A DNA stretch of 64,000 bases. It comes from a virus. This document shows, one piece after another, positions 2,105 through 11,106 of the stretch (positions within the stretch are counted from its first letter, which is position 1; every line of letters begins with the position of its first letter). The translations under genes and the position numbers were made by a program. The stretch covers positions 1 to 64,000 of the IMG/VR virus record IMGVR_UViG_3300034407_001956. One strand, 5' to 3'. Below the pieces are notes generated by a model. It did not search any database. It had not been told where the DNA came from and saw nothing but the letters and a program-made list of their open reading frames with translations.

Positions 2105-2267
2105 ATACATTTCAGAAGAAGAACGTAGAGAAGCACAGCGTAAATGGTCTATGGAATATTATCACAGGAATAGGGTTGTTCTACAAGCAAAAGCTAGAGA
2201 ACGCTACCGTAGGAAAAAACAAATGGAATTAAAAGAAATACAAAGAAGAGAACTATATGGCGAGTGA
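2088..2267 (+). CDS. Small basic helical protein, possibly nucleic-acid binding
   Basis: MGRKRKY...; Arg/Lys-rich; overlaps both neighbours; ATG 2088 preferred over the track start. Confidence 0.6.
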   Translation: MGRKRKYISEEERREAQRKWSMEYYHRNRVVLQAKARERYRRKKQMELKEIQRRELYGE

Positions 2268-3627
2268 GAATTTTAATCAATTCGGTCCGACATTTCAATC
2301 AAAGATAATCTCATCTTTACTGTCGGACAATAAGTTCATACAAACAATAAGCGATATATTAGAACCAGAGTTCTTCGATTCGGATGCCAATAAATGGCTA
2401 ACAAAAGAAGTTAGTAAGTATTTTATGGAGTTTAGAAAAGCTCCTACATTAGAAGTTCTCAAAATAAAAATAACTCAAATGGATGATGAGATATTAAAAG
2501 TATCTATCATTGAGAATCTTAAAGAAGCTTGGAGAAACATAGAGGCTACTGATTTAGAGTTTGTAAAACAGGAGACTTTAGGTTTCTGTAAGAATCAGGT
2601 TATTAAAGAATCGATTATGCAATCGGTTGATTTATTAGAACAAAAGAAATATGATGAGATAAAGGTAATAATTGATGCGGCTATGAAAGCTGGTAGTGAA
2701 AGAGATTTAGGACATGACTATATTATATCTCTAAACGACAGACTTACAGAATCAGTAAGGGAGACATTACCAACACCTTGGGATTCTATTACCAATGTAA
2801 TGGATGGTGGATTAGCTGGTGGTGAGTTAGGAGTATTAGTTGCTGCTGCTGGTGTTGGTAAGACTTGGTGCTTACAATCTCTGGCTGCTCATTTGGTAAA
2901 GCAAGGTAAGACTGTAGTTCATTATACTTTAGAATTGAATGAGGCTTATGTTGGACTAAGATATGATACTGTGTTTAGTGGTACACCAACTGCTAATATA
3001 AAATACTATCAAGATGATGTTCAGAAAGTTATAGATAAGTTAGAAGGTAAGTTGATTATAAAATACTATCCAACTCGTTCTGCTTCGGTAAATACATTAG
3101 CTTCTCATCTGAAACAGATGGAAATACAGGAAATCAAACCTGATGTGGTTATAGTTGATTATGCTGATATTTTAAAACCAACCACATTCTATAAAGAGAA
3201 GAGGCATGCTACTGGTGAAACCTATGAGAATCTTCGTGGTATGGCTGGTGAGTTTGATATTCCAATATGGACTGCTTCACAGGCAAATAGAAGTTCGTTA
3301 GAAGAAGATGTGATTGATGCTAGTAAAGTATCAGAGGATTATAGTAAGGTTATGACAGCAGACTTTGTTATGTCAGTTAGTCGAAAGGTTGAGGATAAGA
3401 TTGCTAATACTGGTAGGGTGCATGTAATCAAAAACAGATTTGGTATTGATGGAATAACATTTCCTGCAGAAATCAATACAAATACAGGTCACATACAAGT
3501 GTATGAAGCATCAACGCAGGGTGGGAAATCAGCACAAGGTAAGATGGATAATTCAGAAGAATATTTAAGACAAACATTATCTAAAAAATATAATGACTTA
3601 AAACCAAAAACTGAAGGATTTGAGTAA
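2257..3627 (+). CDS. Replicative SF4 helicase (DnaB/T4 gp41-like)
   Basis: Walker A AAAGVGKT, YTLEL, VIVDYAD, WTASQANR, KNRFG. Confidence 0.95.
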   Translation: MASENFNQFGPTFQSKIISSLLSDNKFIQTISDILEPEFFDSDANKWLTKEVSKYFMEFRKAPTLEVLKIKITQMDDEILKVSIIENLKEAWRNIEATDLEFVKQETLGFCKNQVIKESIMQSVDLLEQKKYDEIKVIIDAAMKAGSERDLGHDYIISLNDRLTESVRETLPTPWDSITNVMDGGLAGGELGVLVAAAGVGKTWCLQSLAAHLVKQGKTVVHYTLELNEAYVGLRYDTVFSGTPTANIKYYQDDVQKVIDKLEGKLIIKYYPTRSASVNTLASHLKQMEIQEIKPDVVIVDYADILKPTTFYKEKRHATGETYENLRGMAGEFDIPIWTASQANRSSLEEDVIDASKVSEDYSKVMTADFVMSVSRKVEDKIANTGRVHVIKNRFGIDGITFPAEINTNTGHIQVYEASTQGGKSAQGKMDNSEEYLRQTLSKKYNDLKPKTEGFE

Positions 3628-3692
3628 AGAAGAATCGGTATATATTATATTTATTGATTGTGAGAAACAAACAGATTAATTTAGGAGTTACG

Positions 3693-5702
3693 ATGGAAAA
3701 ATTTACATTATCAGAAAATTTTATAAATAAGTTTAAAAGAAAAAAACCACCATTCGGTTTCAACGGATTAGGTGAGTTGGTTTATATGAGAACCTACTCA
3801 AGAATTAAAGAAGATGGAAAGAATGAAAGATGGTGGGAAACAGTTAGAAGAGTCGTAGAGGGAACATACTCTATGCAAAAAAATCACATTGATGGACATC
3901 AATTAGGGTGGAATCCGTGGCAAGCTCAAAAGTCAGCGCAAGATATGTATGAGCGCATTTTCAGTATGAAGTTTTTGCCACCTGGCCGTGGACTTTGGGC
4001 TATGGGAACAGCCATAACCGAAGAAAAGGGTTTATACGCCGCCCTCAACAATTGTGCATTTGTATCAACATCAACAATAAAAGATGACTATGCTAAACCA
4101 TTCTGTTTCCTTATGGATGCAAGTATGTTAGGAGTAGGAGTTGGATTTGATACTAAGGGTGCTGGTGAGATTATCGTAAAGGGTATAGACGAAAGTCGTG
4201 ATGAATCCCTATTTGAAATACCAGATACTCGTGAGGGTTGGGTTGAGTCTCTTAAAGTTCTTTTAGAAAGTTACTTTCACGGAACTGCTCCTATCAAATT
4301 TGATTACTCAAAGATAAGAGCGGCTGGAGAACCAATCGCAGGATTTGGTGGAGTATCAAGTGGTCACGAACCTTTGCTTGAAGTACACAAAGATATAATA
4401 AAGGTTTTAGAAAAAAATGAAGGTGAACCAATAACAATAACAACAATTGTAGACATAATGAATCTGATTGGCAAATGTGTTGTAGCAGGTAATGTAAGAA
4501 GAACTGCTGAGATTGTATTTGGTGATCCGCACGATGAAGAGTATTTAGATTTAAAAAATTACAAAGTAAATCCGGATAGGGAGACATATGGTTGGACTTC
4601 TAATAATAGTATATATGCAGAACTCGGTATGGATTATACTGATGTATGTCGAAGAATAGTAGATAATGGAGAACCAGGCTTTGCTTGGTTAGATAATATG
4701 AGACATTACTCTCGTATGAAGAATGGTGGGGATGATAAAGACCATAGGGTAATGGGCGGTAATCCTTGTTTAGAACAATCACTAGAATCATACGAGTTAT
4801 GTTGTTTAGTAGAAACATTTCCACACAATCACGATTCATTAGAAGATTATCAAAGAACTTTAAAATATGCATATTTGTATGCTAAAACAGTTACATTAGG
4901 AAGAACTCATTGGGCTGAAACCAATAGGGTTATGTTAAGAAATAGAAGAATAGGATGTTCTGTAAGTGGAGTAGCTCAGTTTATTACAAAGAATGGAATG
5001 GGTGAACTACAGAATTGGTTGGAGACAGGATATGATACAATACAAGAATGGGATAAACAATATTCTGATTGGTTTGCTGTACCGAAGTCAATTAAAACAA
5101 CATCAGTTAAACCAAGTGGCACTGTTTCCTTATTGGTTGGTGCTACTCCAGGAATGCATTACCCTGAGTCGAGGTTTTATATTAGGAGAATGAGATTATC
5201 AAAGCATTCAGAACTATTAGAACCACTAAAGAAAGCTAACTATAAATTAGAACCAGCTTTTGGTTCAGAGGACACAACAATGGTTGTTGAAGTTCCTGTA
5301 GATGTCGGTGAGGGGATAAGAACAGCAGCTGAACTTTCAATTTGGGAACAATTTAGTTTAGCTGCTTTCTTACAAAGACATTGGGCTGATAATCAGGTAA
5401 GTTGCACTGCTACTTTCGATCCAGAAACAGAAGCTAACCAACTACCACACGTTTTAAATTACTTTCAGTATAAATTAAAGGGTATATCATTACTACCACG
5501 ACACGAATTAGGTGCTTATAAACAGATGCCATATGAAGCTATCACAGAAGAAGAATATAATACTATGGTAGGTAAGTTAGGTAAATTATCTTTCGGTGTA
5601 ATCAAAAATGAAGAGGCTGATATAGATAAATTCTGTAATAACGATAGTTGTGAAGTACCACCTTTAACAGGTGATAATGACGATCAAGAATATGCAAATT
5701 AA
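3693..5702 (+). CDS. nrdJ: Class II adenosylcobalamin-dependent ribonucleotide reductase (monomeric RTPR type)
   Basis: PPGRGLW, LNNCAF, VVAGNVRRTAEI, NPCLEQ thiyl-radical loop, TTSVKPSGTVS, C-terminal CNNDSC pair; SD AGGAG at 3683-3687. Confidence 0.93.
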   Translation: MEKFTLSENFINKFKRKKPPFGFNGLGELVYMRTYSRIKEDGKNERWWETVRRVVEGTYSMQKNHIDGHQLGWNPWQAQKSAQDMYERIFSMKFLPPGRGLWAMGTAITEEKGLYAALNNCAFVSTSTIKDDYAKPFCFLMDASMLGVGVGFDTKGAGEIIVKGIDESRDESLFEIPDTREGWVESLKVLLESYFHGTAPIKFDYSKIRAAGEPIAGFGGVSSGHEPLLEVHKDIIKVLEKNEGEPITITTIVDIMNLIGKCVVAGNVRRTAEIVFGDPHDEEYLDLKNYKVNPDRETYGWTSNNSIYAELGMDYTDVCRRIVDNGEPGFAWLDNMRHYSRMKNGGDDKDHRVMGGNPCLEQSLESYELCCLVETFPHNHDSLEDYQRTLKYAYLYAKTVTLGRTHWAETNRVMLRNRRIGCSVSGVAQFITKNGMGELQNWLETGYDTIQEWDKQYSDWFAVPKSIKTTSVKPSGTVSLLVGATPGMHYPESRFYIRRMRLSKHSELLEPLKKANYKLEPAFGSEDTTMVVEVPVDVGEGIRTAAELSIWEQFSLAAFLQRHWADNQVSCTATFDPETEANQLPHVLNYFQYKLKGISLLPRHELGAYKQMPYEAITEEEYNTMVGKLGKLSFGVIKNEEADIDKFCNNDSCEVPPLTGDNDDQEYAN

Positions 5703-5708
5703 ACGCGG

Positions 5709-5742
5709 ACAGGCAGCTGACACACCTGTGAAAAAATGTGTC
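5709..5742 (+). promoter_or_regulatory. H-type pseudoknot in TBDR 5' leader (candidate riboswitch or cis-regulatory RNA)
   Basis: S1 ACAGG 5709-13/CCTGT 5725-29; S2 GACACA 5719-24/TGTGTC 5737-42; A-rich L3 GAAAAAA; SD AGAGGAG 5755-61. Confidence 0.6.
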
Positions 5743-5768
5743 TTAACTAAGAAAAGAGGAGAACGTTA

Positions 5769-8498
5769 ATGAAGAAACGTAATCTAATAATAACATTACT
5801 AATGACAACAGGATTGTTCGCACAATCTATCGTTGGAGTTGTTGGTAATGGTAAAGAACCATTGGCAGGAGCTAATGTGATTGTTGTCGGAACTGATAAA
5901 GGTGGTGTAACAGATGAGTCTGGTAAATATACTATCGATGTTGGAGCTGAAGGCACATACACATTAACTGCTTCTTTCATTGGGTACTCATCTTTAACAC
6001 TTGATGTTAAGGTGGGTGATATAGTTGGAACAGCAAACTTCGATTTAGAAGCAGATGTTTTAGCTATGTCAGCGCTTGAGGTTTTAGCATCAAGAGCTGA
6101 TGAAACAACGCCTGTTGCTTACACTAATGTTAGTAAAGAGGATTTGGAATTTCGTCTTGGTTCACAAGATATTCCAATGGCTCTAAATACTACACCGAGT
6201 GTATACGCTACTGGCCAAGGTGGTGGAGCTGGAGATGCTCGTATCAATGTACGTGGTTTCAACCAAAGAAACGTTGCTGTTATGATTAACGGTGTTCCCC
6301 AAAATGATATGGAGAACGGATGGGTTTATTGGTCTAACTGGGATGGTGTTGCAGACGCAGCCCAATCAGTTCAGATGCAAAGAGGACTATCTGCTGTTAA
6401 TTTAGCTACACCGTCTATTGGTGGAACTATGAACATAATCACAGATCCTGCTGCTCAAGAAAAGGGTGGTAAAGTAAAGCAAGAAGTAGGTGAGGGTGGA
6501 TTCCTCAAATCTACTTTGAATTATAACTCAGGTCTTATCAATGATAAACTAGCACTTAGTGGAACTATTGTTCGTAAAACTGGTGATGGTTTCATCGATG
6601 GAACTTGGACAGATGCATGGGCTTACTATTTCGGAAGTTCTTATCAGCTGAATGATGAACATCGATTTGAGTTATATGGAATAGGCGCCCCACAAAGACA
6701 CGGTCAAAACCTATATAAACAGAACATAGCGACTTACTCACAAGATTTAGCAGGAGACATTAGTGGTTATAATGATTCTGCTTATGTAGCTGGTGAGAAG
6801 TTTGAAACTGAAGCTGGTAGGTTCTACAATCAGAATTGGGCTCCTGTCGATCCTTCTTATAAAGGTAAACAATACTTTTATATGTATGGTGATAAAACAC
6901 AGGATAGATTCAGTTCTGATTTTCTAAATGAAAGAGAAAACTTCTTTCATAAACCACTTGTAAACCTAAATCACTTTTATGATATAAATGATGATATGAG
7001 GTTAAGTTCAGTACTTTACTGGAGTGGTGGTTCAGGTGGTGGAACTGGTACTTACGGAAGTGTCAGTAGAAAACCTGCAGTTGAAGGAGAACCTTGGTAC
7101 GCAAGTTCACCTTGGATGTGGGATTGGAATGCCGAGATAGCTCAGAACTCTGCTAATGTAGATTCTGCTTTCTCTGATGTTGAAAATCGTTCAACAGGTA
7201 TTCTTAGGAACTCAATCAATAGACAAAATACTTATGGTTTGATTTCAAAATTAAACTATGATGTATCAGATGCTCTTGAAATTCAAGTCGGTATTGATTG
7301 GAGAACTGCTGGAATAGAACATGCTAGAGAAGTTCGTGACTTACTTGGTGGAGACTACTATGTAGATTACGCTGATGACAATGCTCCTGATGGTAAGAAA
7401 GTTGGGTTAGGTGATATTATCGCTTACCACAACGAAACCACAGTTGATTGGTTTGGTGCTTTCTTACAAGGTAAGTATGACATCGCTAAGTTCAACTTAT
7501 ATGGTATGGGTGGAATATCCACTATTGGATATACATATCAAGACCATTTCTCAGTTGATAAAGAAGTTGTTAAGGCTGATGCTATTACTACTTTCCAAGT
7601 GAAAGGTGGTGGTAGATATAATCTTGATGACAGACTTTCAGCATTTGCTAACATTGGGTATGTTGAGAAACCACCAATCTTAGACAATGTGATTGATTAT
7701 GATGGTAATGTTTCACAGAATCCAGATAATGAAAAGTTCATTTCTAACGAAATCGGTGGAGAATACAGAAGCGATTTAGTTGCTATCAAAGGTAGTTTTT
7801 ATAATACCCAATGGAAAGATAGAAACCTTACCAAATCTGTAACTACTGGACAAGGTGATTCAGGCGACTCAGACATCATTTATCTTACTGGCGTAAATCA
7901 AACTCATAGTGGTTTTGAGATAGAGTCTAAAGTTGCTCTTCACAAAATGGTTGAGTTAGATGTAGCGATAAGTATTGGTTCTTGGAAGTTCGATGGAGAT
8001 GCTAAAGGTGACTACACAGAGATGGAATACAATGATGATAATCAAATTATTGGACAAACATCTACTGAGTACCAATATGCTCTTAATGGTCTAATGGTTG
8101 GTGATATGCCACAAACTGCTTATGTTGGTGGCCTTACACTTAAACCAATTGATGGACTTAGCTTACAAGGTCTCTATAGAATATACGACAATCACTATGC
8201 TGATTGGAGTCCTGATTCTCGTGAGGTTGATGGTGATGCTGATAGGGCGCAAGTTTGGAAATCTCCTGGATATTCTAAGCTTGATTTACATATTGCATAT
8301 AAACTACCAGAAATTGCAGGTTTAGATATGACTATAACAGGTCATCTATTCAATGCACTTGACAATGTTTATGTTCAAGACGCTGTTGATAATAGTCAAT
8401 ATAATGGGTATGGTGACAAAGTTCACGCTGCTCATAATGCTGAAGTATTTCTTGGAACACCAAGACACTTCAACTTAGGACTTGCTGTCAATTTCTAA
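5769..8498 (+). CDS. TonB-dependent outer-membrane receptor with N-terminal carboxypeptidase-regulatory-like domain
   Basis: Signal peptide; EPLAGANV...GGVTDESGKY...ASFIGY domain; plug (INVRGF, VMINGVP, GGTMNIIT); C-terminal beta-signal FNLGLAVNF. Confidence 0.93.
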   Translation: MKKRNLIITLLMTTGLFAQSIVGVVGNGKEPLAGANVIVVGTDKGGVTDESGKYTIDVGAEGTYTLTASFIGYSSLTLDVKVGDIVGTANFDLEADVLAMSALEVLASRADETTPVAYTNVSKEDLEFRLGSQDIPMALNTTPSVYATGQGGGAGDARINVRGFNQRNVAVMINGVPQNDMENGWVYWSNWDGVADAAQSVQMQRGLSAVNLATPSIGGTMNIITDPAAQEKGGKVKQEVGEGGFLKSTLNYNSGLINDKLALSGTIVRKTGDGFIDGTWTDAWAYYFGSSYQLNDEHRFELYGIGAPQRHGQNLYKQNIATYSQDLAGDISGYNDSAYVAGEKFETEAGRFYNQNWAPVDPSYKGKQYFYMYGDKTQDRFSSDFLNERENFFHKPLVNLNHFYDINDDMRLSSVLYWSGGSGGGTGTYGSVSRKPAVEGEPWYASSPWMWDWNAEIAQNSANVDSAFSDVENRSTGILRNSINRQNTYGLISKLNYDVSDALEIQVGIDWRTAGIEHAREVRDLLGGDYYVDYADDNAPDGKKVGLGDIIAYHNETTVDWFGAFLQGKYDIAKFNLYGMGGISTIGYTYQDHFSVDKEVVKADAITTFQVKGGGRYNLDDRLSAFANIGYVEKPPILDNVIDYDGNVSQNPDNEKFISNEIGGEYRSDLVAIKGSFYNTQWKDRNLTKSVTTGQGDSGDSDIIYLTGVNQTHSGFEIESKVALHKMVELDVAISIGSWKFDGDAKGDYTEMEYNDDNQIIGQTSTEYQYALNGLMVGDMPQTAYVGGLTLKPIDGLSLQGLYRIYDNHYADWSPDSREVDGDADRAQVWKSPGYSKLDLHIAYKLPEIAGLDMTITGHLFNALDNVYVQDAVDNSQYNGYGDKVHAAHNAEVFLGTPRHFNLGLAVNF

Positions 8499-8510: not shown

Positions 8511-8535
8511 GGGGGGAATTTATTTCCCCCCTTTT
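8511..8535 (+). terminator. Intrinsic terminator after TBDR
   Basis: GGGGGGAA-TTTAT-TTCCCCCC followed by TTTT. Confidence 0.85.
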
Positions 8536-8548
8536 ATCAAAATAAACC

Positions 8549-8578
8549 TTGACTTATGTAAGGTTTTAGTTGTATATT
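8549..8578 (+). promoter_or_regulatory. Sigma70-type promoter for polB
   Basis: TTGACT-N18-TATATT. Confidence 0.7.
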
Positions 8579-8610: not shown

Positions 8611-11106
8611 ATGTATCAAAATATTTATTACGACAATAAAACGCAAACAGTTCATATTTGGGATGATGAAACAGGCTACTACACTTTACCATATAAGAAA
8701 TATGCTTATGTAAAAGACAGAGCTGGTACTCATATATCTCTATATGGAGATAAATTGAAGAAAGTATATAGATTCGATCCAGACACACCTAATTTATTTG
8801 AATCAGATGTACCGCCTGAAACTCGTGTGTTGGTAGACAACTACGCAGATTCAGAAGAACTATCAAATGGTCATCGTATTATGACAATCGATATTGAGGT
8901 AGAGGTTACAGATGGCTTTCCATATCCCGAAGATTCTAAAGATAAAATAACTGCTATCGCAGTTCATAACTCAGAAGAGGATGAGTATTATTGTTTGGTG
9001 TTAGATGAGAAAAAGAAACTCAGTTTGAAATCAAAAGATAATGAAATCATAGAATCCTTTGAAACAGAGTTTGATTTACTACAAAGATTTTTTCTATTAT
9101 ATTTAGATTGGAAACCAACCATTATTACAGGTTGGAACTCTGATTCATTTGATATGCCTTACATTTACAATAGAGCTTGTAAGATTGTTGGTTCTGATAT
9201 AGCTAATTTAATCTCACCAATAAGAGAAGTAAAGTGGAACAAACATCGTAAGAGGTTTATGTTTGCTGGTGTTAGTTGTTTAGATTACTTAGCTCTATAC
9301 AAACTATTCACATACACTCAACTATCCTCTTACAGATTAGATGCTGTAGCTGAACACGAACTTAGTGAAAAGAAAGTTGAGTATACAGGAACACTCAATG
9401 ACTTATATGAGAATAACATAGATAAGTTTGTGGAATATAATATCCATGATGTTAGGCTTGTAAAGAGATTGCACGACAAATTAGATTTAATCGATATGGC
9501 TAGAGGTGTGTGTCACGTAGGTCATGTTCCTTATGAGGATGTATATTTTTCCTCACGTTATTTAGAAGGTGCTATCTTAGTCTATTTAAAGAACTTAGAA
9601 GTCGTAGCACCAAATAAACCAGCAAGACCAAATATGAATAGTGATGAGAAGTTTGCTGGTGCTTATGTCCAACCACCACAAAGAGGTAAACACGATTGGG
9701 TATTTGATTTAGATATTACATCTATGTATCCATCCGTAATTATGTCTCTGAATGTATCACCCGAAACAAAGATGGGTAAATTAAAAGGTTGGGATGCTGA
9801 AGAATTTATGAAAGGTACAAAGAAAACCTATACCCTTATGTCAGGCGAAAAAGAGATGGGTAAACTTTCTGAATTAGAATTAAAAGATTTCTTTGACAAT
9901 AACAAAGTATCAGTATCTTCTAATGGTGTTCTATATCGTAGTGATAAGAAAGGTTTGATTCCAGCCCTATTAGAGAAGTGGTTCGATACTCGTGTGGAGT
10001 ATAGAAAGTTGATGAAGAAGTTCGGTGATGAGGGAAACAATGAAAAGTATACTTACTTTAAAAGTCGTCAGCTAATACAGAAGGTGGTTCTAAACTCTTT
10101 GTATGGTGTATTAGGTTTGCCAGTATTTAGGTTCTATGATTTAGATAATGCTGAGGCTACAACACTTACAGGTCAAGAGTTAATTAAGTTTACTAAAAAG
10201 ATTGGTAATCATTTCTACAATAAAGAATTGGGTACTAATGAAGATTATTGTATTTACATAGATACAGATTCAGTATTCTATTCAGCTCTTCCATTGGTTA
10301 AGAAGAGGTTTCCTACTATGGATTTCGATAGTGAGACTATGATGAGTAAGAGGATATTGGATGTGGCTGATGAGATGCAGGGGTTTCTAAATAAGTCTTA
10401 TGACTACTTCGGTAAGAAGTTCCTAAACTTAGATAAACATAGGTTTGAGATAAAGCAGGAATTGATTGCTAAATCAGGTTTATTCATTGTGAAGAAACGA
10501 TATGGTATGAAGATTATCAATGACAATGGAGTAAAGGTAAACAAACTGCATGTCAAAGGATTGGACTTGGTTCGTAGTAATTTTCCAAAGGCTATGGGTG
10601 AACTACTGAAGAGTGTGTTGGAAGATATTCTGGCTACTGTTCCAAAGGATAAGATAGATGAGAGGATTATAAACTTCAAAGAATCTATGAAACTATTAGA
10701 CTTTGATAGGATAGCGATGCCAACAGGTATAAATAATCTAAAGAAGTACACAAATGGTAAGGCTGGTAAGTTTACAAAGTTTGCTAAGGGTGCGCCTGCT
10801 CACATAAAAGCAGCACTAACCTATAATGATTTATTAAAACACTTCGGAGTTGGTAAGAAGTATGAGAAGATAAGTAACTCTGAAAAGATTAAGTGGGTGT
10901 ATCTCAGACCAAATGATTTAGGATTAGAATCATGCGGTTACAAAGGTTATGAAGACCCACCAGAAATAATTAATTTTATTAAGACAAACATAGATTACAA
11001 AAAGATGTATGCTCAGATGTTAGAGAAGAAGATAATGATGTTTTATGAATCTCTAAAATGGAATGAGCCGGTAAACAAAAAGACATCTATGGAAAGATTT
11101 TTTTGA
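8611..11106 (+). CDS. Family B DNA polymerase (T4 gp43-like)
   Basis: Exo DIEV, GWNSDSFD, YNIHDV; pol DITSMYPS, KVVLNSLYG, YIDTDS, KKRY. Confidence 0.97.
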   Translation: MYQNIYYDNKTQTVHIWDDETGYYTLPYKKYAYVKDRAGTHISLYGDKLKKVYRFDPDTPNLFESDVPPETRVLVDNYADSEELSNGHRIMTIDIEVEVTDGFPYPEDSKDKITAIAVHNSEEDEYYCLVLDEKKKLSLKSKDNEIIESFETEFDLLQRFFLLYLDWKPTIITGWNSDSFDMPYIYNRACKIVGSDIANLISPIREVKWNKHRKRFMFAGVSCLDYLALYKLFTYTQLSSYRLDAVAEHELSEKKVEYTGTLNDLYENNIDKFVEYNIHDVRLVKRLHDKLDLIDMARGVCHVGHVPYEDVYFSSRYLEGAILVYLKNLEVVAPNKPARPNMNSDEKFAGAYVQPPQRGKHDWVFDLDITSMYPSVIMSLNVSPETKMGKLKGWDAEEFMKGTKKTYTLMSGEKEMGKLSELELKDFFDNNKVSVSSNGVLYRSDKKGLIPALLEKWFDTRVEYRKLMKKFGDEGNNEKYTYFKSRQLIQKVVLNSLYGVLGLPVFRFYDLDNAEATTLTGQELIKFTKKIGNHFYNKELGTNEDYCIYIDTDSVFYSALPLVKKRFPTMDFDSETMMSKRILDVADEMQGFLNKSYDYFGKKFLNLDKHRFEIKQELIAKSGLFIVKKRYGMKIINDNGVKVNKLHVKGLDLVRSNFPKAMGELLKSVLEDILATVPKDKIDERIINFKESMKLLDFDRIAMPTGINNLKKYTNGKAGKFTKFAKGAPAHIKAALTYNDLLKHFGVGKKYEKISNSEKIKWVYLRPNDLGLESCGYKGYEDPPEIINFIKTNIDYKKMYAQMLEKKIMMFYESLKWNEPVNKKTSMERFF

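What the first reader, a model, noticed from the sequence alone, without database searches (positions are those of the whole stretch)
5703..5768. Compact H-type pseudoknot in the 66-nt nrdJ-TBDR gap: candidate new riboswitch
Seen: S1 ACAGG(5709-13)/CCTGT(5725-29) and S2 GACACA(5719-24)/TGTGTC(5737-42), all Watson-Crick, with a 5-nt L1 and A-rich L3 GAAAAAA, ending 12 nt before the SD AGAGGAG. Known: a 5-bp stem with ~11-nt loop and A-tract tail is the architecture of the smallest riboswitches (preQ1-I, compact NAD+-II), and transporter leaders are typical riboswitch sites. The loop lacks the preQ1-I consensus as I recall it. Inference: a variant or novel aptamer, or a protein-bound translational operator like the T4 gene 32 pseudoknot, whose ligand could reveal the TBDR substrate.
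Basis: partly seen in the sequence, partly recalled or inferred. Interest (0 to 1): 0.75.

Follow-up and report, generated by a model that had tools for sequence, protein, structure and literature searches.

The report
Conserved pseudoknot leading a phage receptor gene
A 34-base RNA pseudoknot sits in front of an outer-membrane receptor gene carried by a large family of uncultured T4-like phages; it is strongly conserved, matches no catalogued RNA family, and probably controls how much of the receptor is made, though what binds it is unknown.

Summary
S1 (5709-13/5725-29) and S2 (5719-24/5737-42) lie exactly as described, in H-type order.

The window is part of a T4-like phage. The motif lies between a B12-dependent triphosphate reductase gene and a TonB-dependent-receptor-like gene. 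Loci were gathered only by similarity of that receptor protein. All 155 with upstream DNA carry the motif at the same place.

Both stems are kept through many compensatory changes. Six of 11 pairs show them, and no shuffle in 500 reaches the observed score. The motif occurs once per phage record. It was not found in cellular genomes except on phage-like contigs binned into MAGs, and not at the chromosomal Bacteroidota orthologues of the receptor. Rfam gives no match even at E 10.

No helix links the motif to the Shine-Dalgarno box. An unstructured, A-rich linker of 13-28 nt, often starting UUAA, separates them.

This layout mirrors the T4 gene 32 operator. My best reading (0.4) is a translational operator bound by a phage protein. 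A phage-restricted riboswitch (0.2) and a constitutive stability or processing element (0.2) remain open.

It is a real, undescribed RNA motif whose effector is unknown.

The parts
3654..5702 (+). Upstream gene: adenosylcobalamin-dependent ribonucleoside-triphosphate reductase (class II RNR, RTPR type). Stop codon TAA at 5700-5702.
   Evidence: TIGR02505 scores 350.5 bits against a cut-off of 340; Pfam RNR_Alpha and RNR-II_ins_dom also match. It lies directly upstream of the motif in 167 of 177 related loci.
5705..5708 (+). GCGG 5' flank. Conserved in the main clade but replaced by other sequences in more distant relatives, so it is not part of the core.
   Evidence: Alignments A2 and A3.
5709..5713 (+). 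S1 5' strand, ACAGG.
   Evidence: Pairs with 5725-5729. Variants ATAGG/CCTAT, ACTGG/CCAGT, CCTGG/CCAGG and GCAGG/CCTGC occur. Three of 5 pairs show compensatory change.
5714..5718 (+). L1, CAGCU. Length is 5 nt in nearly all relatives. CA(G) is nearly invariant and the last two bases are free.
   Evidence: Exceptions are CAAAT, CATTT, CAAGC and ATAAG (L319).
5719..5724 (+). S2 5' strand, GACACA. It abuts the S1 3' strand with no L2.
   Evidence: Pairs with 5737-5742. Variants GGCACA/TGTGCC, GACGCA/TGCGTC, AGCACA/TGTGCT and AACACA/TGTGTT occur. Three of 6 pairs are compensatory, and 99.5-100% of cells are paired.
5725..5729 (+). S1 3' strand, CCUGU.
5730..5736 (+). L3, GAAAAAA. The last five A are invariant and the first two positions are free. 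Length is 7 nt, rarely 4 or 9.
5737..5742 (+). S2 3' strand, UGUGUC.
5743..5757 (+). Unstructured A-rich linker, beginning UUAAC.
   Evidence: In 199 loci the linker is 13-28 nt long with 55% A and 6% G. Mean MFE is -0.29 kcal/mol. UUAA follows S2 directly in 39 of 98 distinct linkers, against 1.6 expected.
5758..5761 (+). GGAG, the core of the Shine-Dalgarno box AGAGGAG (5755-5761), 7 nt before the ATG.
   Evidence: GGAG is present in 199 of 199 leaders, 6-8 nt before the ATG in 191.
5769..8498 (+). TonB-dependent-receptor-like gene, 909 aa, with signal peptide, CarboxypepD_reg-like domain and Plug domain.
   Evidence: Pfam PF13715, PF07715 and PF13620. More than 5800 relatives in metagenomes. 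Chromosomal Bacteroidota orthologues share 44-52% identity over the full length.
8511..8531 (+). Terminator-like GC hairpin followed by a T-run, closing the RTPR-receptor unit.
   Evidence: No such site lies between the RTPR and receptor genes.

Best explanation
Shown: the gap holds a sense-strand RNA element. It is a compact H-type pseudoknot (S1 5 bp, L1 5 nt, S2 6 bp, no L2, L3 7 nt A-rich). It belongs to the leader of the phage's TonB-dependent-receptor-like gene, occurs once per phage genome, and is confined to one family of uncultured T4-like phages.

Inferred: it is a translational operator recognised by a trans-acting phage protein, in the manner of the T4 gene 32 operator. The folded pseudoknot would be the specific nucleation site. 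Binding would then extend over, or sterically cover, the unstructured UUAA-containing A-rich linker and the Shine-Dalgarno box 13-28 nt downstream. Receptor synthesis would thereby be tuned separately from the co-transcribed reductase gene.

Candidate binders are the gp32-type single-strand-binding protein, encoded 6-8 kb upstream in related records, and the gp43-type polymerase, encoded just downstream. No evidence chooses between them or another protein.
For: - Existence and conservation: all 78 leaders of the first protein-gathered set carry the motif. So do all 77 of the second set that have upstream DNA.
- Motif core pairwise identity is 89%, against 47% in both flanks.
- Covariation: 97.7-98.6% of cells are paired. 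Five to 6 of 11 pairs have double changes, and 0 of 500 shuffles reach the covariation score. Slid controls pair in only 18-62% of cells.
- On a tree of the receptor protein, the five clearly covarying pairs need at least 4, 8, 9, 16 and 18 changes of state; the often mismatched terminal S1 pair needs 26.
- Sense-strand RNA: internal G.U wobbles occur (GGCACA/TGTGTC, GCAGG/CCTGT).
- Gene-specific: there is one hit of 69.7 bits in the window and the next best is 8.8 bits. There is one hit in the 94-kb record and one strong hit in each of five records of 100-132 kb.
- The motif stays with the receptor gene where the upstream gene differs.
- Phage-specific: of 41 matches to the pattern in about 186,000 species genomes, only 4 satisfy both stems, and all lie on phage-like contigs. 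No real hit was found in 151 Flavobacteriales genomes or at chromosomal orthologues.
- Operator-like layout: no terminator lies between the two genes, the linker is unstructured, UUAA is enriched next to S2 and GGAG is invariant.
- T4-like setting: the polymerase matches the DNA polymerases of T4-like cyanophages and of Pelagibacter phage HTVC008M. A gp32-family gene is present in 5 of 5 longer relatives.
Against: - No binding protein has been identified or tested.
- The downstream gene is a membrane receptor, not an RNA- or DNA-binding protein, so this would not be autogenous control as in T4 genes 32 and 43.
- The gp32 leaders of related phages use a different structure, a hairpin with GGUUAY in the loop, and show no sequence likeness to this pseudoknot.
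- No RegA or gp32 gene was found in the 94-kb record itself, although that record is only about half a genome.
- Invariant junction-proximal pairs and conserved loop bases are equally what a ligand pocket would show.
- UUAA enrichment may be partly inherited rather than selected.
Confidence: 0.4

Rival explanations
1. Riboswitch. The pseudoknot is a small-molecule aptamer of a new class, confined to this phage lineage. Ligand binding at the S1/S2 junction stabilises or remodels the fold and changes access of the 30S subunit to the nearby ribosome binding site.
For: - The five pairs next to the helical junction never vary (G-C, G-C, A-U, C-G, C-G). The loop bases that would face them are nearly invariant: CA(G) at the start of L1 and AAAAA at the end of L3. 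Distal pairs and distal loop bases vary freely.
- Leaders of TonB-dependent receptor genes are classic riboswitch sites (own knowledge).
- Compact H-type pseudoknots do serve as aptamers: preQ1-I/II, SAM-II/V and guanidine-III (own knowledge).
- No protein partner is known.
Against: - No Rfam match, even at E 10.
- No conserved alternative helix or SD sequestration. The probability of SD pairing with the motif is 0.06, against 0.14 with a shuffled motif, and RNAalifold finds only S2.
- There are no unpaired junction nucleotides for a preQ1-I-like pocket, because L2 = 0.
- The motif was not found in any cellular genome searched or upstream of the cellular orthologues. Phage riboswitches known to me also occur in cellular genomes (own knowledge).
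- The same conservation pattern is expected from loop-helix triples that merely stabilise a short pseudoknot.
Confidence: 0.2
2. Constitutive structural element with no specific effector. Possible roles are a 5' cap-like stabiliser of a processed receptor mRNA, a 3' exonuclease barrier for the reductase mRNA, an RNase processing signal, or an insulator that keeps the A-rich ribosome binding site from pairing with upstream coding sequence.
For: - The motif lies in a very short intercistronic gap of a probable polycistronic transcript. There is no terminator between the genes and a strong one after the receptor gene. The distance from the RTPR stop to S1 is 2-55 nt.
- In T4, gene 32 mRNA is cut by RNase E just 5' of its pseudoknot and is unusually stable (PMC3014915).
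- The A-rich single-stranded linker would be a natural RNase E target (own knowledge).
- No expression platform is detectable.
Against: - Sequence is conserved far more than a generic stable structure requires. Five of 11 pairs never vary and loop bases are nearly fixed over receptor divergence down to about 50-65% identity.
- There is only one such element in 94-132 kb of phage genome. A general stabiliser or insulator would be expected at other genes too.
Confidence: 0.2
3. Not a pseudoknot. S1 and S2 are two alternative hairpins of a conformational switch and never form together.
For: Each hairpin alone is computed at -4.4 kcal/mol, so the two are isoenergetic.
Against: - The two stems share no nucleotide, so nothing forces them to exclude each other.
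- Loop lengths are held at values that fit the classical H-type geometry: L1 5 nt across a 6-bp deep groove, L3 7 nt across a 5-bp shallow groove, and L2 0 for coaxial stacking (geometry from own knowledge).
- Conservation is concentrated at the S1/S2 junction and in the loop segments that would face it. Two independent hairpins with those bases in their loops would not explain this.
Confidence: 0.08
4. DNA-level element: interleaved inverted repeats that serve as an operator for dimeric DNA-binding proteins, or as a hairpin in single-stranded replication intermediates.
For: - The motif lies in the replication gene cluster (exonuclease, helicase, RNR, polymerase).
- Half-sites of a dimeric operator can change in parallel and mimic covariation (own knowledge).
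- A TTCACATAC box of unknown role lies just upstream in many relatives.
Against: - G.U intermediates would be A.C mismatches on the other strand.
- The A-run is strand-specific, and the position is fixed relative to the SD and ATG of one gene whatever lies upstream.
- Two different, interleaved repeats with fixed loop lengths fit an RNA fold better than protein half-sites do.
Confidence: 0.04

Closest known systems
Bacteriophage T4/T2/RB69 gene 32 autoregulatory mRNA operator (H-type pseudoknot plus A+U-rich linker)
   Same: - Both occur in T4-type phages.
- Both have two coaxially stackable short stems at the 5' side of a leader. The T4 pseudoknot lies 67 nt upstream of the start codon; here it spans -60 to -27.
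- In both, an unstructured A/U-rich stretch with UUAA follows and runs into the ribosome binding site (PMC3014915).
- The phage family encodes a gp32-type protein.
   Different: - The regulated gene is an outer-membrane receptor, not gene 32.
- The sequence is unrelated and L1 is 5 nt. By my recollection L1 is 1 nt in T2/T4.
- The gp32 leaders of these same phages carry a different hairpin.
- Binding by gp32 or any other protein is untested.
preQ1-I riboswitch (Rfam RF00522)
   Same: A 5-bp first stem, a loop of about 11 nt, an A-rich 3' tail forming L3, an H-type fold and a total size of about 34 nt.
   Different: - No covariance-model match at E 10.
- No L2 junction bases, and no conserved C to pair with the ligand.
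- S2 is a stable 6-bp helix rather than a 3-4-bp ligand-dependent P2.
- The SD lies 13-28 nt downstream, not inside P2.
- The gene context is a receptor, not queuosine metabolism.
- The motif was found only on phage or phage-like contigs.
Other compact pseudoknot aptamers: SAM-II, SAM-V, guanidine-III, NAD+-II (pnuC motif)
   Same: H-type or pseudoknotted folds under 60 nt with conserved loop bases that form triples with a helix. SAM-V is likewise marine.
   Different: - No Rfam match to any of them.
- The conserved sequences are different.
- No shared gene association.
- No SD sequestration.
T4 gene 43 (DNA polymerase) translational operator
   Same: - A phage replication protein represses translation by binding a small structured RNA upstream of an SD.
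- The operator loop contains UAAC (PMC3014915), and UUAAC follows S2 here in 29 of 98 distinct linkers.
- A gp43-type polymerase gene lies immediately downstream of the receptor gene.
   Different: - The T4 operator is a simple hairpin overlapping the SD of gene 43 itself.
- Here the structure is a pseudoknot in front of a different gene.
- UAAC in an AT-rich linker may be coincidence.

Membership tests
preQ1-I riboswitch (RF00522) | Match to the family covariance model | tested here: not met
   cmscan of 5500-5950 at E up to 10 gave no match to any family. The gathering-threshold scan of the whole window found only a tRNA.
preQ1-I riboswitch (RF00522) | Unpaired junction (L2) with a conserved C that pairs with the ligand, and a short P2 that contains or abuts the SD | tested here: not met
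   The S2 5' strand abuts the S1 3' strand, so L2 = 0. S2 is 6 bp with 99.5-100% of cells paired. GGAG lies 13-28 nt after S2.
preQ1-I riboswitch (RF00522) | Association with queuosine or preQ1 biosynthesis or transport genes | tested here: not met
   Where downstream DNA exists, a receptor-like gene (or its truncated remnant in three loci) follows the motif.
NAD+-II riboswitch (pnuC motif) | Covariance-model match and association with pnuC | tested here: not met
   No Rfam match. The downstream gene is receptor-like.
SAM-II / SAM-V / guanidine-III pseudoknot riboswitches | Covariance-model match | tested here: not met
   No Rfam match at E 10.
Riboswitch (generic) | Conserved structured aptamer with invariant unpaired bases upstream of functionally coherent genes | tested here: met
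Riboswitch (generic) | Expression platform: an alternative helix, terminator or SD sequestration coupled to the aptamer | tested here: not met
   No terminator. RNAalifold finds only S2. SD-motif pairing probability is 0.06, below the shuffled control.
Riboswitch (generic) | Direct, selective binding of a small molecule | not testable with these tools
   Needs in-line probing, ITC or reporter assays.
T4 gene 32-type translational operator | H-type pseudoknot at the 5' side of the leader with coaxially stackable stems | tested here: met
   Loop lengths are fixed.
T4 gene 32-type translational operator | Unstructured A+U-rich linker with UUAA(A) between the pseudoknot and the ribosome binding site | tested here: met
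   The linker is 78% A+U with mean MFE -0.29. UUAA occurs in 59 of 98 distinct linkers against 22.7 expected. The feature is as described in PMC3014915.
T4 gene 32-type translational operator | Lies in the leader of gene 32 itself (autogenous control) | tested here: not met
   The downstream gene is receptor-like. In relatives gp32 lies 6-8 kb upstream and has a different leader.
T4 gene 32-type translational operator | Bound by gp32 with repression of translation | not testable with these tools
   Needs gel-shift or footprinting and reporter assays.

The most novel reading that the evidence does not exclude
The pseudoknot is the aptamer of a riboswitch class that exists only in phages. It would have evolved on the phage after capture of a Bacteroidota receptor gene. 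It would sense a metabolite tied to phage DNA synthesis (the receptor's cargo, a nucleotide, or the cobalamin needed by the adjacent reductase) and so set receptor production during infection.
Probability: 0.2. Interest if true: 0.85.

Novelty: new variant of a known kind. Interest (0 to 1): 0.62.

Why it matters
- The phage family is widespread in metagenomes. Several hundred viral contigs carry the receptor gene, and more than 5800 receptor relatives (E up to 0.001) turn up in metagenome and genome protein collections. The family places a host-derived outer-membrane transporter in the middle of its replication genes.
- A dedicated, tightly conserved RNA element in front of that one gene implies that receptor dosage matters to the phage. 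It also gives a small, testable handle (34-46 nt) on how a phage regulates a captured host gene.
- If a protein binds it, this would be a second example of pseudoknot-nucleated translational control in T4-type phages. It would also be the first acting on a gene other than the binder's own.
- If a metabolite binds it, this would be a new and unusually small riboswitch class, and the ligand would point to the receptor's role.
- In either case the motif is a ready addition to RNA family databases.

Tried and rejected
- Known RNA family: Rfam found nothing at the gathering threshold over 64 kb or at E 10 over 5500-5950.
- General phage promoter, terminator or repeat: the motif occurs once per record. 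The upstream TTCACATAC box is not enriched in the window.
- Intrinsic terminator or attenuator: no terminator-like site lies between the two genes.
- Anti-SD or expression-platform helix: none was found by RNAalifold or by ensemble pairing probabilities. A possible hairpin around the start codon showed no specific covarying pairs.
- Upstream ORF from the invariant AUG in L3/S2: lengths run from 3 to 18 codons, or read into the receptor frame. All three frames are used and the stops are scattered.
- Third hairpin in the linker: only about 5% of linkers fold at -2 kcal/mol or better.
- Read-through or frameshift signal for the reductase: the distance from the stop codon to S1 varies from 2 to 55 nt, and the motif persists with other upstream genes.
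- Host origin of the motif: none was found in about 186,000 species genomes with the strict pattern, apart from phage-like contigs in MAGs. None was found in 151 Flavobacteriales genomes with the model; one weak hit was inspected and is chance. None was found at five chromosomal orthologue loci.
- RegA and gp32 genes in the window's own record: not found, but the record is about half a genome.
- Literature: a search for the 10-mer GGACAGGCAG returned only unrelated primer sequences. Searches on phage-encoded receptors gave no paper on this element.
- Close cultured relative: no nucleotide match was found in the phage collection.

Full report
**The observation.**
- S1 is ACAGG 5709-5713 with CCTGT 5725-5729.
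- S2 is GACACA 5719-5724 with TGTGTC 5737-5742.
- L1 is CAGCT, no base lies between the S2 5' strand and the S1 3' strand, and L3 is GAAAAAA.
- AGAGGAG lies at 5755-5761, 12 nt after S2, and the ATG is at 5769.

A nested MFE fold of the gap is no better than shuffles (z 0.28), but that program cannot represent pseudoknots. An H-type arrangement of at least this quality turned up in 13 of 20000 dinucleotide-preserving shuffles of the 66-nt gap. That is unusual, but not conclusive on one sequence.

**Context.** The window is the first 64 kb of a 94-kb uncultivated virus record estimated to be about 51% complete. G+C is 33.6% and nearly all genes are on one strand. The genes around the gap are these:

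| Coordinates | Gene |
|---|---|
| 1070-2104 | 5'-3' exonuclease |
| 2257-3627 | DnaB-like helicase |
| 3654-5702 | Adenosylcobalamin-dependent ribonucleoside-triphosphate reductase (TIGR02505, above cut-off) |
| 5769-8498 | 909-aa protein with CarboxypepD_reg-like and TonB-receptor Plug domains |
| 8611-11106 | Family B DNA polymerase |

The polymerase matches the DNA polymerases of T4-like cyanophages and Pelagibacter phage HTVC008M at 31-33% identity. It matches Microcystis phage Mel-JY01 at 46%. Related longer records carry a gp32-family gene. So this is a T4-type phage. No terminator-like site separates the reductase and receptor genes, and a strong one follows the receptor gene at 8511-8531. 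The two genes are therefore probably co-transcribed (inference).

**Conservation.** I collected relatives by similarity of the receptor protein only, so the sample is not biased towards the motif.
- The first scan gave 313 viral contigs, of which 80 loci were kept (74-85% identity). All 78 leaders with enough upstream DNA contain the motif.
- A second scan was centred on a relative only 64% identical to the window's protein. It gave 80 more loci. A covariance model of the motif hit 77 of them at the same position. The three misses have no upstream DNA.
- An exact-pattern scan added more than 100 further contigs, each with one copy. In 103 of 117 the receptor-like gene begins about 56-74 nt downstream of the matched pattern. 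In 11 of the other 14 the contig ends first, and the remaining three are deletion variants. Those variants keep the motif and the first ~25 codons but have lost the rest of the gene.
- Pairwise identity is 89% in the 34-nt core and 47% in both flanks.

**Covariation.** On the unbiased alignment A1, 98.6% of cells pair and 5 of 11 pairs show changes on both sides. No shuffle in 500 reaches the observed score, and sliding the partners drops pairing to 18-56%. The non-redundant alignment A2 and the second unbiased set A3 agree: 98.3% and 97.7% paired, with 6 of 11 pairs compensatory. In A3 only S2 was in the model, so the S1 counts are not fitted.
- S1 variants: ACAGG/CCTGT, ATAGG/CCTAT, ACTGG/CCAGT, CCTGG/CCAGG and GCAGG/CCTGC.
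- S2 variants: GACACA/TGTGTC, GGCACA/TGTGCC, GACGCA/TGCGTC, AGCACA/TGTGCT and AACACA/TGTGTT.

On a FastTree of the first 400 residues of 153 distinct receptor proteins, the variable pairs need at least 4 to 18 changes of state each (26 for the often mismatched terminal S1 pair). The double changes are therefore not a single inherited event. Recombination between leader and gene could inflate these counts. Internal G.U wobbles would be A.C mismatches on the other strand, so the structure belongs to the sense-strand RNA.

**Pseudoknot or two hairpins.** The stems share no nucleotide. Alone, each hairpin is worth -4.4 kcal/mol. Loop lengths are held at 5 nt for L1, 0 for L2 and 7 nt for L3 (rarely 4 or 9). 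These are the classical values for coaxially stacked H-type pseudoknots (established geometry, own knowledge).

The pattern of invariance is telling. The pairs next to the S1/S2 junction never vary: G-C and G-C in S1, and A-U and C-G in S2, plus one further C-G deeper in S2. The loop bases that would lie against them are nearly fixed: CA(G) at the start of L1 and AAAAA at the end of L3. The distal pairs and the distal loop bases are free. That is what loop-helix triples in a folded pseudoknot predict (inference). Two independent hairpins would not explain it. I put the two-hairpin reading at 0.08.

**Specificity.**
- The model scores 69.7 bits at 5701-5746. Nothing else in the window exceeds 8.8 bits with filters off.
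- The 94-kb record has one hit. Five related records of 100-132 kb each have one strong hit.
- The reductase gene lies directly upstream in 167 of 177 loci. In the other ten the motif stays with the receptor gene.
- A pattern scan of one genome for each of about 186,000 prokaryote species gave 41 matches, near chance expectation. Only four satisfy both stems. Those four contigs sit in MAGs labelled Flavobacteriales, Methanobacteriota, Pelagibacter and unclassified. The one with enough sequence shows the same reductase-motif-receptor-polymerase order, so I read them as binned phage contigs.
- The model found nothing real in 151 Flavobacteriales genomes. One hit at E 0.009 was inspected and lacks the fold.

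**No expression platform.**
- RNAalifold on full leaders predicts only S2.
- In 112 distinct leaders the ensemble probability that GGAG pairs with the motif is 0.06. With a shuffled motif it is 0.14.
- The linker between S2 and GGAG is 13-28 nt long (median 18) with 55% A and 6% G. It is essentially unstructured, with mean MFE -0.29 kcal/mol.
- UUAA follows S2 directly in 39 of 98 distinct linkers, against 1.6 expected. It occurs somewhere in 59, against 22.7 expected. Shared descent may contribute to these counts.
- GGAG is present in all 199 leaders, 6-8 nt before the ATG in 191 of them.
- The invariant AUG inside L3/S2 does not start a conserved upstream ORF.
- A hairpin around the start codon is not supported.

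**Comparison with known systems.** Rfam 15 has no match, even at E 10. The likeness to preQ1-I is architectural only: a 5-bp stem, a loop of about 11 nt and an A-rich tail. The defining junction bases, the short ligand-dependent P2 that overlaps the SD, and the gene context are all missing.

The closest analogue in layout is the T4 gene 32 operator. [quoted passage not shown] Here the regulated gene is not gene 32. The gp32 leaders of related phages use a different hairpin, with GGUUAY in the loop, followed by a UUAA-rich linker.

**Mechanism.** What is shown is a conserved, gene-specific, phage-specific RNA pseudoknot followed by a single-stranded A-rich linker and a strong SD. What is inferred is its role.
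- Translational operator for a phage protein: 0.4. The motif has no cellular counterpart, there is no expression platform, and the T4-type setting offers known precedents.
- Phage-restricted riboswitch: 0.2. The invariant junction could equally be a ligand pocket.
- Constitutive stabiliser, processing signal or insulator within the bicistronic transcript: 0.2.
- DNA-level element: 0.04.
- The remainder is unassigned.

**Origin of the receptor gene.** Full-length orthologues at 44-52% identity occur in about 25 of 301 sampled Bacteroidota genomes. No match at E 1e-90 or better was found in 401 Pseudomonadota genomes. The gene therefore most likely came from a Bacteroidota host (inference). The chromosomal loci have neither the motif nor any Rfam riboswitch. 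The pseudoknot therefore appears to have arisen on the phage. In three of six distinct chromosomal loci a type I phosphodiesterase / nucleotide pyrophosphatase gene follows the receptor gene. That hints at nucleotide or organophosphate uptake rather than, or besides, cobalamin.

**Verdict.** The element matches no family in Rfam release 15, and the literature searches found no description of it. Its effector is unknown.

Noticed in passing
window 5769-8498; loci L324-L331: The phage receptor gene has full-length chromosomal orthologues (44-52% identity) in about 25 of 301 sampled Bacteroidota genomes. None was found at E 1e-90 or better in 401 Pseudomonadota. In 3 of 6 distinct chromosomal loci a type I phosphodiesterase / nucleotide pyrophosphatase gene (PF01663) follows it on the same strand. 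This suggests nucleotide or organophosphate cargo rather than cobalamin.
   Followed up: partly
relatives, e.g. L022:1480-1500, L042:3916-3940; absent in the window: A conserved TTCACATAC box lies between the reductase stop codon and the pseudoknot in many relatives, 0-10 nt 5' of S1. It is not enriched elsewhere in the window and does not covary with S2. Its role is unknown.
   Followed up: partly
L154, L164, L176 (motif at oriented positions 5121, 7886, 1987): These are deletion variants. The pseudoknot, the SD and about 25 codons of the receptor gene are kept, the rest of the gene is missing, and a different 483-aa ORF follows.
   Followed up: no
L332-L336 (records G437-G441): Related phages encode a gp32-family single-strand-binding protein 6-8 kb upstream of the pseudoknot on the same strand. 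Its leaders carry a hairpin with GGUUAY in the loop, then a UUAA-rich A/U linker and AGGAG. This is a T4 gene 32-like layout that may be an autoregulatory operator of its own. The window's record begins too late to include this gene.
   Followed up: partly
window 8511-8531: A strong terminator-like hairpin (GGGGGGAA...TTCCCCCC followed by a T-run) lies just after the receptor gene. A sigma-70-like promoter match at 8549-8578 precedes the polymerase gene.
   Followed up: no
window, all ORF starts: About half of 76 crude ORF calls have an SD-like box at -18 to -4, and GGAG is invariant before the receptor gene. Yet the receptor's nearest cellular relatives are Bacteroidota, whose ribosomes are reported to make little use of SD pairing (own knowledge).
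   Followed up: no
L208, L216, L229, L239: Contigs of this phage family are binned into MAGs labelled Flavobacteriales, Methanobacteriota and Candidatus Pelagibacter, and into one unclassified bacterial MAG. The inconsistent labels suggest mis-binning rather than host evidence.
   Followed up: partly
relatives' linkers, e.g. L035, L059, L190: A minority of linkers contain short palindromes that could form a small third hairpin, such as TTCGTTAACGAA and ATTTCATGAATGAAAT. Only about 5% fold at -2 kcal/mol or better.
   Followed up: yes
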